The position numbers were made by a program, and so were the translations under genes. A stretch of DNA of 64,000 nucleotides, taken from a virus. Under the pieces are notes generated by a model that was given only the letters and a program-made list of their open reading frames with translations, was not told where the DNA came from and did no database searches. Positions 28,930 through 29,490 of the stretch are shown here, piece by piece (the first letter of the stretch is position 1; every line of letters starts with the position of its first letter). The stretch covers positions 30,063-94,062 of the IMG/VR virus record IMGVR_UViG_3300045988_058617; one strand, 5' to 3'.

Positions 28930-29490
28930 ATGAAAAAGACAATTGAAATTGAATGTCCAGATGGTTATAAACCCATCTATAATGCCGAAACTGGCAATGT
29001 TGAAATCGTTCCAGAAAACATTATGGGACGGATAAGAACCTATGAGGATGCTGTAAACTATCTAGGGTGTGTTACTAGAGATACTATTTACTACAATAGA
29101 TCTGTAAATTCTCTAGCTAAGTTGCAGACAGTCTTGGATGCGCTAAATGAAGGTCACAAGTTCAATCTGTTAACTGGTACTATATGGTATCCCTGGGTTC
29201 GCTTCTTTAGAATGAAATCAGTTCCGAAGGATGCAGAAGTCATTGGTCACTTCCGTTATCAGGGCGAGAAATTCGCGTTGGTGGGCGGCCGCGCGTATGG
29301 TGGCGGCGGTGCGGGTCTCGGCTATTTCTATTCTTACGTTGGCGTCGGCTATGCCTATTCCTATGTCGGGATGCTTGCGTGCAAATCTGAAGAGATTGCC
29401 AAATACGTATCAACCCAGTTTGGAAAGCTAGTGTTCGATGCTTGTTTTGCAAGACATTTCAAGGGTGAAGAATTTGAATGGCTTGACTAA
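28930..29490 (+). CDS. DGR target protein 2 (remote target), a 186-aa protein carrying VR2 (…GGRAYGGGGAGLGYFYSYVGVGYAYSYVG…).
   Basis: ORF track. It contains the 94-nt GC-rich segment homologous to TR/VR1, with adenine-specific differences. Confidence 0.7.
   Translation: MKKTIEIECPDGYKPIYNAETGNVEIVPENIMGRIRTYEDAVNYLGCVTRDTIYYNRSVNSLAKLQTVLDALNEGHKFNLLTGTIWYPWVRFFRMKSVPKDAEVIGHFRYQGEKFALVGGRAYGGGGAGLGYFYSYVGVGYAYSYVGMLACKSEEIAKYVSTQFGKLVFDACFARHFKGEEFEWLD
29275..29368 (+). repeat. DGR variable repeat 2 (VR2), on the opposite strand and about 27 kb from the TR/RT.
   Basis: Codon-by-codon alignment with TR (minus sense) and VR1: TR AAT/AAC/AGC codons become TAT/GGT/GGC/CGC here. There are no differences at non-A positions of TR, apart from one edge position and a 1-nt TR indel. 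Confidence 0.75.

What the first reader, a model, noticed from the sequence alone, without database searches (positions are those of the whole stretch)
29275..29368. Remote second DGR variable repeat (VR2) in a small plus-strand gene about 27 kb from the TR/RT
A conspicuous GC-rich island inside gene 28930–29490 aligns codon-for-codon with TR and VR1. Again it differs from TR only at TR adenines (TR AAT/AAC/AGC become TAT/GGT/GGC/CGC here), and it differs from VR1 at those same positions. The single DGR therefore appears to diversify two targets: the adjacent late tail-fibre-like protein, and a small early-region, standard-coded 186-aa protein on the opposite strand. The TR also has one extra C (gcccaattcc) relative to both VRs (gccNNttcc). 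That is either an assembly indel or evidence that the TR has drifted.
Basis: seen in the sequence. Interest (0 to 1): 0.85.

Follow-up and report, generated by a model that had tools for sequence, protein, structure and literature searches.

The report
Second, remote target of phage DGR
A large gut phage uses one mutagenic reverse-transcriptase system to rewrite two genes: its tail-fibre gene, and 27 kb away a small uncharacterised protein in the non-structural part of the genome, so this targeted hypermutation is not limited to host-recognition proteins here.

Summary
Window 29279-29370 (+), inside ORF 28930-29490 (186 aa), is a codon-for-codon copy of the DGR template repeat (TR, 1850-1948, -). 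23 of 30 TR adenines are substituted and 0 of 60 other bases.

In 29 related ~185-kb genomes, VR2 differs from its own TR at 632/861 adenines and 15/1778 other bases. When a TR carries a non-adenine change, the VR2 of the same genome carries it too. VR non-A sites are 13-fold less diverse than the rest of the gene. Among 120 homologues, hypervariability sits only at the AAY-templated codons. Complete genomes hold exactly three copies: TR, VR1 and VR2.

The extra C in the TR is private to this sequence; about 30 relatives read GCCAATTCC. This copy's RT also has GNYLLQ where 63 relatives have GNYLSQ.

Non-adjacent phage DGR targets are already known. New here:
- The crAss-like DGR papers I read describe no second target.
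- The target belongs to an unannotated family of ~190-aa proteins with an internal VR.
- Its confident predicted fold matches no solved structure.
- It lies in the standard-coded non-structural block.
- The family is hypervariable at the same positions in other crAss-like lineages.

The parts
29279..29370 (+). VR2, the remote variable repeat. It encodes residues ~117-147 of the 186-aa protein and is internal, followed by 39 more residues.
   Evidence: 92-nt match to TR/VR1, with mismatches to the TR only at TR adenines; hypervariable only at TR-A sites across relatives.
28930..29490 (+). VR2 target gene, 186 aa, standard code, no signal peptide. It belongs to an unannotated family of ~170-220-aa phage proteins.
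   Evidence: ORF; 832 homologues; 238 clusters at 50% identity; no Pfam, PADLOC or NCBIfam hit. PHROG 11581, unknown function. AF2 pLDDT 92.
1850..1948 (-). Template repeat (TR), non-coding, between the VR1 gene and the RT gene. It holds 30 adenines in the core, mostly in AAY codons.
   Evidence: (D7). Nearly invariant in about 30 related genomes.
1867..1869 (-). CCC run holding the extra C that is private to this sequence. Relatives have CC. If copied, it would shift the frame of both VRs.
2052..2149 (-). VR1, the adjacent variable repeat at the C-terminus of the tail-fibre-like protein.
   Evidence: Hypervariable in relatives.
2027..3844 (-). VR1 target gene (about 605 aa if TAG is read as sense; several in-frame TAG), a tail-fibre-like protein.
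   Evidence: PMC12386605 describes the equivalent tail-fibre targets of zeta crAss-like DGR cassettes.
435..1725 (-). DGR reverse transcriptase gene with in-frame TAG codons. It has YADD, and GNYLLQ in place of the usual GNYLSQ.
   Evidence: translation. RVT_1, E 5.6e-17; motif comparison with 65 relatives.
1711..1799 (-). Possible structured spacer RNA between the TR and the RT start. This is a weak match to Rfam RT-17, below the gathering score.
   Evidence: 28.7 bits against a threshold of 40.4, E 0.0086.
20611..20683 (-). Amber suppressor tRNA (anticodon CTA, Gln-like). It is needed to translate the RT and the VR1 target, but not the VR2 gene.

Best explanation
VR2 is a genuine second, non-adjacent target of the phage's single diversity-generating retroelement (DGR).

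How it most likely works:
1. The TR and its downstream spacer are transcribed.
2. The RT copies the TR RNA into cDNA and misincorporates at template adenines.
3. The cDNA replaces the homologous stretch at two places: VR1, 100 nt upstream of the TR at the 3' end of the tail-fibre gene, and VR2, 27.3 kb away on the other strand.

Both VRs are read in the same frame. One template therefore randomises the same 11 AAY codons inside an otherwise constant 31-residue peptide (LVGGxAxxGGxAGLGxFxSxxGVGxAxSxVG) in two unrelated scaffolds.

Shown here: A-specific templating, co-variation with the genome's own TR, homogenisation of the non-A sites, and population hypervariability.

Inferred from what is known of DGRs: the RNA/cDNA intermediate and action in trans.

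Inferred from context, at about 0.5:
- The RT carries in-frame TAG codons, so it can only be made once the amber suppressor tRNA works.
- The VR2 gene is standard-coded and lies among tRNA, metabolic and replication genes, with no signal peptide.
- So the VR2 protein is most likely a non-virion ligand-binding protein, and new variants would act in the next infection.

In this particular genome the element may currently be impaired, because the TR has +1 C and the RT has S->L in GxxxSQ.
For: Window:
- VR2 has 23/30 adenines changed and 0/60 other bases. There are three copies only.

Relatives:
- 632/861 A sites against 15/1778 non-A sites differ between VR2 and the TR of the same contig.
- TR non-A substitutions are mirrored in VR2 in three independent genome lineages.
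- Nucleotide diversity is 0.010 at VR non-A sites, 0.129 in the rest of the gene and 0.499 at TR-A sites.
- In 120 homologues of 85-96% identity, entropy above 3 bits is found at ten AAY-templated codons only (121, 123, 124, 127, 134, 136, 137, 141, 143, 145), plus 2.1 bits at residue 132, templated by a TAT codon.
- Complete ~185-kb genomes hold exactly TR + VR1 + VR2.

Element:
- The RT has an RVT_1 domain and YADD.
- Similarity to VR1 proteins is confined to the VR.

Context:
-.
- The same kind of non-structural context holds for homologues in other lineages.
Against: - The TR of this sequence has an extra C. If copied, it would frameshift both VRs.
- The RT hallmark motif is GNYLLQ rather than GNYLSQ. 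Present-day activity in this individual genome is therefore not shown.
- No convincing IMH-like element or hairpin is shared by the 3' flanks of VR1 and VR2. Fold z-scores are -0.9 and +0.2. The small VR2 hairpin is broken by uncompensated changes in about a third of relatives.
- No read-level data were available, so within-population turnover is inferred from differences between assemblies.
- The cellular location and ligand of the VR2 protein are unknown.
Confidence: 0.9

Rival explanations
1. VR2 is a relic. It was once templated by the TR, is no longer diversified, and is now just a conserved paralogous stretch.
For: In this window the TR has a frameshifting extra C and the RT has an altered GxxxSQ motif. 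This could mean a dead element in this genome.
Against: - Near-identical genomes carry almost saturated differences at TR-A sites, and VR non-A sites are 13-fold less diverse than the surrounding gene.
- TR substitutions confined to a few genomes, so probably recent, are mirrored in VR2.
- The extra C is absent from about 30 relatives.
Confidence: 0.05
2. The similarity reflects DNA-level gene conversion or recombination between VR1 and VR2, or a shared protein domain. It is not reverse-transcriptase templating from the TR.
For: VR1 and VR2 share the same constant residues and the same frame.
Against: - VR1 and VR2 differ from each other at most TR-adenine columns and at no other column of the core. 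Each matches the TR perfectly at non-A sites. Conversion between the VRs would homogenise them.
- Protein homology does not extend beyond the VR.
- The GC-rich, A-poor island ends exactly at the TR boundaries.
Confidence: 0.02
3. Same DGR mechanism, but the 186-aa protein is a virion or adsorption accessory, such as a small receptor-binding or decoration protein, rather than a non-virion protein.
For: - Phage DGR targets described so far are mostly receptor-binding or tail proteins (PMC10743442, PMC8144416).
- The VR peptide is the same one displayed on the tail fibre.
- There is a weak PHROG 'tail protein' hit, but it covers only the VR stretch (E 0.0036).
Against: - The gene lies outside the TAG-recoded structural block, among tRNA, metabolic and replication genes. 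This holds here and in three other lineages.
- It has no signal peptide or transmembrane segment (sequence).
- It has no structural-protein annotation in any library.
Confidence: 0.3

Closest known systems
Phage-associated DGRs with one adjacent and one non-adjacent target within ~50 kb (survey of Wu et al. 2018, PMC5758913)
   Same: One RT and one TR, one target next to the cassette and another elsewhere in the same phage genome, with A-specific TR-to-VR differences and action in trans.
   Different: - That survey assigns VRs to C-type-lectin or Ig classes. Here the second target has an internal VR in a family with no detectable CLec or Ig similarity.
- The host here is a ~185-kb crAss-like phage with split genetic codes.
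[quoted passage not shown] Also alpha (PMC7290462) and epsilon (PMC11054128) crAss-like DGRs.
   Same: Arrangement of tail-fibre target with a C-terminal VR, then TR, then RT. No avd. RT genes interrupted by amber codons. CTA suppressor tRNA. A tRNA block at the start of the opposite gene block.
   Different: Term searches of these papers (VR2, second/two target, remote, target gene) found only cassette-adjacent tail-fibre or RBP targets, or extra TR-VR pairs within the cassette region of Lera/ct1yV3. No remote target in the non-structural block turned up.
Bordetella phage BPP-1 DGR (Mtd), the prototype, as summarised in PMC5758913
   Same: Adenine-specific mutagenic retrohoming from TR to VR. 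Variable residues encoded by AAY codons within a constant scaffold.
   Different: - BPP-1 has a single target with a C-terminal VR in a CLec fold, an Avd accessory protein, and a defined IMH plus hairpin.
- Here there are two targets, no avd between target, TR and RT, and no shared recognisable IMH or hairpin.
Two-target phage DGRs with tentaclins (PMC10743442)
   Same: One phage DGR diversifies two functionally different proteins.
   Different: There, both targets lie in the cassette and both are CLec domains (N-terminal CLec plus Ig in tentaclins). Here the second target is 27 kb away, on the opposite strand, and not detectably CLec.
Treponema denticola and Legionella-type cellular DGRs with scattered targets (as summarised in PMC5758913)
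   Same: Trans action of one TR/RT on distant VRs.
   Different: Those are cellular, their targets are paralogous CLec/FGE proteins, and distances reach megabases.

Membership tests
DGR variable repeat (target of mutagenic retrohoming) | The VR matches a TR near an RT gene, with mismatches confined to TR adenines. | tested here: met
   23/30 A, 0/60 non-A; 632/861 against 15/1778 in 29 genomes.
DGR variable repeat (target of mutagenic retrohoming) | The VR follows its own genome's TR at non-adenine positions (information flows from TR to VR). | tested here: met
   TR changes (4x C->T in two contigs; T->C in one) are present in the VR2 of the same contig; non-A VR sites are homogenised (0.010 against 0.129).
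DGR variable repeat (target of mutagenic retrohoming) | Population hypervariability restricted to codons templated by TR adenines. | tested here: met
   entropy above 3 bits at ten AAY-templated codons and 2.1 bits at residue 132 (TAT). No site outside the VR exceeds 2 bits, and most are dimorphic.
DGR (element) | Reverse transcriptase of the DGR type (RVT_1 domain, YxDD, [LIV]GxxxSQ motif). | tested here: inconclusive
   RVT_1 at E 5.6e-17 and YADD are present. The motif reads IGNYLLQ in this window, but IGNYLSQ in 63 of 65 relatives.
DGR (element) | IMH-like 3' boundary and downstream hairpin/cruciform at each target (defined for BPP-1). | tested here: inconclusive
   - Both VRs end at GTCGGG against TR GTCGAG.
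- Small 4-nt-loop hairpins exist downstream of each, but they are not better than shuffles.
- The VR2 hairpin is not conserved.
DGR (element) | Accessory protein (Avd or HRDC) in the cassette. | tested here: not met
   There is no room for an ORF between the VR1 gene stop (2027), the TR (1948-1850) and the RT start (1725). PMC12386605 reports avd in only two zeta phages. This feature is not universal among DGRs.
C-type-lectin-fold DGR variable proteins (Mtd, TvpA, FGE-like) | CLec fold, with the VR forming the C-terminal part of the domain. | tested here: not met
   - The model is confident (pLDDT 92, pTM 0.84).
- Best Foldseek E against the whole PDB is 0.5, TM 0.21.
- No Pfam FGE-sulfatase or DUF1566 hit in 104 members.
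- The VR is internal, at residues 117-147 of 186.
- No direct superposition on Mtd or TvpA was possible.
Ig-fold DGR variable proteins | Ig-like beta-sandwich carrying the VR. | tested here: not met
   The model is mixed alpha/beta with six helices. No Ig match beyond noise.
Zeta crAss-like phages | Genome of 145-192 kb, a tRNA block, amber or opal recoding of the structural block, and crAss-like hallmark genes. | tested here: inconclusive
   - Relatives are 178-193-kb contigs.
- The window holds 24 tRNAs including suppressors.
- TAG recoding applies to the minus block only.
- Hallmark genes (TerL, MCP, RNAP) were not examined.
- No nucleotide or protein match in the GenBank phage set.

The most novel reading that the evidence does not exclude
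The 186-aa protein represents a previously unrecognised class of DGR variable protein. It is a compact alpha/beta scaffold, neither C-type lectin nor Ig, with an internal VR. It is encoded in the non-structural, standard-coded block and is recurrently hypermutated in several crAss-like phage lineages in parallel with the tail fibre. If so, these phages would use a DGR to diversify a non-virion, possibly intracellular, binding protein. Such a protein might act against variable host factors or defences, or on envelope components, and not only in host recognition.
Probability: 0.3. Interest if true: 0.8.

Novelty: new variant of a known kind. Interest (0 to 1): 0.6.

Why it matters
DGRs in phages are usually read as devices for switching receptor specificity. 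Here the same template also rewrites a small protein that, by gene context and coding, does not look like a virion component.

The homologues of this protein in other crAss-like lineages show the same hypervariable positions. This gives a concrete, abundant and conserved candidate for a non-tail function of phage DGRs in the human gut.

It also gives a natural test case for two questions. How can one TR serve two unrelated scaffolds? How is a remote target on the opposite strand recognised without an obvious IMH or hairpin?

There is a practical consequence too. The Roux et al. survey states that it would miss targets not next to the RT (PMC8144416), and the crAss-like DGR papers I read describe only cassette targets (PMC12386605). 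Such approaches would miss this target.

Tried and rejected
(1) Finding the TRs of other lineages. I tried to find the TRs that template the homologous VRs in other lineages (groups P0364, P0312, L187), using degenerate patterns.
- A pattern in which every base could also be A matched poly-A and contig ends and was useless.
- A stricter pattern found only one more VR allele in metagenome contigs.
- The same pattern found nothing in viral contigs.
- DGR targeting in those lineages therefore rests on hypervariability and A-depleted islands, not on a TR.

(2) Structure prediction with a shallow alignment of close homologues failed (pLDDT 47). A deep alignment was needed.

(4) Hairpins or IMH-like elements downstream of VR1 and VR2 were no better than shuffles and are not conserved.

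(5) The GenBank phage collection holds nothing similar, by DNA or by protein.

(6) The sister lineage with 72% RT identity was scanned for a third TR-like copy. Only TR + VR1 were found per genome. The remote target is therefore not universal, although a shorter or diverged VR2 would escape that strict pattern.

(7) Pfam, NCBIfam and PADLOC gave no annotation, and PHROGs gave only an unknown-function family.

Full report
**1. The observation**

It is the strongest inverted repeat in the window, and its partner is 2054-2145. It lies inside ORF 28930-29490, which encodes 186 aa and is open in the standard code.

The minus strand of 1-4200 shows a classical DGR cassette:
- a large TAG-interrupted gene that ends at 2027, with VR1 at 2149-2052;
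- a non-coding TR at 1948-1850;
- an RT gene at 1725-435, with an RVT_1 domain, YADD and in-frame TAG codons.

A three-way alignment gives these counts over 91 core columns:
- VR2: 23 of 30 TR adenines changed, 0 of 60 other bases changed. Fisher p = 1.3e-15.
- VR1: 17 of 30 adenines changed, 0 of 60 other bases changed.

The frame is the same in both VRs. Within the aligned core the two VRs differ from each other only at TR-adenine columns.

A TR-derived pattern with every A replaced by N occurs exactly three times in the window. It occurred in none of 100 shuffles.

The TR of this window carries one extra C, GCCCAATTCC, with CCC at 1867-1869.

**2. Templating, not a shared domain**

I collected related genomes from IMG/VR by three routes: a TR word, the 186-aa protein and the RT. 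They are 178-193-kb contigs.

*Pairing by contig.* I paired VR2 with the TR of the same contig in 29 genomes. 632 of 861 TR adenines are substituted, against 15 of 1778 other positions. Of those 15, eight are an alignment artefact of a 6-nt deletion in L047, and four come from a TR that looks chimeric in one assembly.

*Co-variation.* This is the decisive test.
- Contigs 061465 and 065173 carry four C->T changes in their TR (AAC->AAT, GGC->GGT, CTC->CTT, GTC->GTT). Their VR2 copies carry the same four bases.
- Contig 059915 has a T->C in its TR, and its VR2 has it too.

*Nucleotide diversity over 36 relatives.*

| Site class | Mean pairwise diversity |
|---|---|
| VR sites templated by non-A bases | 0.010 |
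| Rest of the gene | 0.129 |
| Rest of the gene, third codon positions | 0.225 |
| VR sites templated by TR adenines | 0.499 |

The constant part of the VR is therefore continually reset by the nearly invariant TR, while the adenine sites are randomised.

*Protein level.* The 120 best of 832 homologues (85-96% identical) show entropy above 3 bits at residues 121, 123, 124, 127, 134, 136, 137, 141, 143 and 145, and 2.1 bits at residue 132. No site outside the VR exceeds 2 bits.

*No shared domain.* hhalign between the VR2 family profile and a profile of VR1 C-terminal domains aligns 36 columns, the VR itself, and nothing else.

*Copy number.* The A-to-N pattern finds exactly three copies in each complete relative: VR1 and TR about 200 nt apart, plus one remote copy.

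**3. The extra C and the state of this copy**

All of the roughly 30 related TRs that cover the site read GCCAATTCC. The extra C is therefore private to this sequence. It is a sequencing or assembly error, or a very recent insertion. If it were copied, it would frameshift both VRs.

Separately, the RT of this window reads IGNYLLQ, where 63 of 65 relatives have the DGR hallmark IGNYLSQ. One relative, L073, shares the L.

So the lineage is clearly active. Whether this individual genome still is cannot be decided without reads.

**4. The target protein**

*Annotation.* There is no hit in Pfam, NCBIfam or PADLOC. The only family hit is PHROG 11581, of unknown function.

*Family.* An exhaustive HMMER search finds 238 clusters at 50% identity, nearly all 170-220 aa and homologous over their full length. 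There are two kinds of N-terminus. The shared core ends in ...LVGGxAxxGxxAGLGxFxSxxGVGxAxxxVGxLxCKSxEIAxHxSKxFGKLIFxAxY. The VR is internal, and about 39 residues follow it.

*Fold.*
- With a deep alignment, AlphaFold2 gives a confident model: pLDDT 92, pTM 0.84. It has an N-terminal beta-hairpin, three helices, three long strands, the VR loops, three helices and a short C-terminal strand.
- Foldseek against the whole PDB gives no hit better than E 0.5.
- BFVD returns only uncharacterised phage proteins.

I therefore cannot place the protein in the C-type-lectin or Ig folds that define known DGR variable proteins. Some caution is needed, because the VR peptide keeps the same constant residues as in VR1. 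This suggests a similar local structure.

**5. Context**

*Coding.* The minus block (1 to about 21 kb) needs TAG read-through: 1 long ORF becomes 8, with 114 internal TAG. The plus block is standard-coded. A Gln-like CTA suppressor tRNA sits at 20611-20683.

*Neighbours.* The VR2 gene lies in the plus block, 30 nt after a tRNA that ARAGORN missed (Rfam tRNA, 41 bits). Around it are 23 further tRNAs, small ORFs, a signal-peptide/TM protein, a lipoprotein-like ORF, an NfeD-like ORF, two Band_7 proteins, an AAA ATPase, an OmpA-like protein, NAPRTase and a helicase.

*Other lineages.* Homologues sit in the same kind of non-structural neighbourhood, with no RT within 10 kb:
- DnaJ, RNase H and PDDEXK;
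- adenylosuccinate synthetase, glucosaminidase and a helicase;
- Band_7, RNase H, OmpA and NAPRTase.

*Inference.* The RT and the tail fibre depend on the suppressor and so are made late. The VR2 protein does not depend on it.

**6. Generality**

Three other subfamilies are conserved throughout except at the same VR positions. They lie on contigs of about 100-140 kb, a size typical of crAss-like phages. Their VR regions are GC-rich and A-poor.

I could not find their TRs. DGR targeting there is likely but not proven.

The sister lineage, with 72% RT identity and a different TR, holds only TR + VR1. The remote target is therefore not universal.

**7. Comparison with what is known**

- Non-adjacent targets within 50 kb are described for phage-associated DGRs, and trans action is experimentally established (PMC5758913). 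The principle is not new.
- Term searches of the three papers devoted to DGRs of crAss-like phages found only cassette targets.
- The Yutin et al. survey does not mention DGRs.
- The Roux et al. survey states that it would miss remote targets.
- The MGV catalogue, from which most related contigs appear to come, notes that most DGR targets are unannotated.
- The two-target 'tentaclin' phages have both targets in the cassette, and both are CLec.

I rate this as a new variant of a known kind.

**8. An unexplained pattern**

This concerns TR adenines outside AAY codons, almost all of them followed by G.
- They are G in at least 76% of independent VR1 (n = 25) and VR2 (n = 38) copies, and in at least 87% at eight of the nine sites. 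They are almost never C or T.
- Three of these sites are synonymous: CTA->CTG, GTA->GTG and GCA->GCG.
- In the sister lineage, A followed by G gives G 242, A 12, T 2 and C 0. This includes the synonymous GGA->GGG (30 of 32).
- An A followed by C at another synonymous site, ACA->ACG, gives G in 22 of 25.

Selection for glycine explains the AGC->GGC sites but not the synonymous ones. Three explanations remain open:
- context-dependent misincorporation by the RT;
- biased repair of cDNA/VR mismatches that preserves a resident G;
- selection at the DNA level.

**Verdict**

- Confidence that VR2 is a DGR target in this lineage: 0.9.
- Interest: 0.6.
- The most novel reading not excluded is a new, non-lectin, non-virion class of DGR variable protein. 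Probability about 0.3.

Noticed in passing
window 1850-1948 (TR), 2052-2149 (VR1), 29279-29370 (VR2); loci L033-L151: TR adenines outside AAY codons, almost all followed by G, are G in at least 76% of independent VR1 and VR2 copies (at least 87% at eight of the nine sites) and almost never C or T. This includes synonymous sites (CTA->CTG, GTA->GTG, GCA->GCG; in the sister lineage GGA->GGG 30/32 and ACA->ACG 22/25). AAY adenines give all four bases. Protein-level selection cannot explain the synonymous sites.
   Followed up: partly
window ~1150-1170 (-), RT residues 'IGNYLLQ': The RT of this window has Leu where 63 of 65 relatives have the Ser of the DGR hallmark GxxxSQ motif (TCA->TTA). One relative (L073) shares it. 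Together with the +1 C in the TR, this raises the possibility that this copy is impaired.
   Followed up: partly
window 29604-29606 (+), in the ORF starting at 29490: The gene right after the VR2 gene has a signal-peptide-like start. It has one in-frame TAA where 20 relatives have CAA (Gln). The phage also encodes a tRNA with anticodon TTA (23597-23666). This is either a private nonsense mutation or a TAA read as sense.
   Followed up: partly
window 28834-28899 (+): A tRNA missed by ARAGORN, 30 nt upstream of the VR2 gene start (Rfam tRNA, 41 bits). By eye the anticodon is GTG (His).
   Followed up: yes
window 1711-1799 (-): Weak match to Rfam RT-17 RNA (28.7 bits, below the gathering score of 40.4) between the TR and the RT start. 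This is where a DGR spacer RNA that primes cDNA synthesis would lie.
   Followed up: no
window 20611-20683 (-) and 23597-23666 (+): Two suppressor tRNAs. CTA (amber) is similar to the phage's tRNA-Gln. TTA (ochre) is more divergent. Only TAG read-through is needed for the minus-strand block (114 internal TAG), and the plus block is standard-coded.
   Followed up: partly
L008 (contig 056908) and L016 (contig 059870): In two related assemblies part of the TR looks VR-like, with A sites replaced: the 3' third in L008 and the 5' end in L016. These are probably TR/VR assembly chimeras, but VR-to-TR conversion is not excluded.
   Followed up: no
L047 (VR2 of contig 050979); homologues P0037, P0053 and others (180-192 aa): Length polymorphism in or next to VR2. 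There is a 6-nt deletion within the VR in L047, and some homologues have a 6-residue insertion just before the GG that opens the VR. DGR homing is not expected to make indels.
   Followed up: no
window 15198-15545: A perfect 174-nt tandem duplication (2 x 174 nt, 100% identical) in the minus-strand structural block.
   Followed up: no
window ~17000-21000: The cumulative GC skew reaches its minimum where the gene orientation switches, which suggests a replication origin. VR1 and VR2 lie on opposite sides and are both co-oriented with the inferred fork direction. An antisense cDNA would then pair with the lagging-strand template at both targets. Nearly all genes share this orientation, so the point does not discriminate.
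   Followed up: no
window 29490-32990 (+); L311 13696-14520: The VR2 gene is followed by a run of envelope-associated genes: a TM protein, a lipoprotein-like ORF with an LxxC lipobox, an NfeD-like ORF and a 657-aa Band_7/flotillin-like protein with a long Ala/Glu/Lys coiled coil. A Band_7 gene also lies ~3 kb downstream of the homologue in a distant 139-kb contig.
   Followed up: partly
[not shown]
   Followed up: partly
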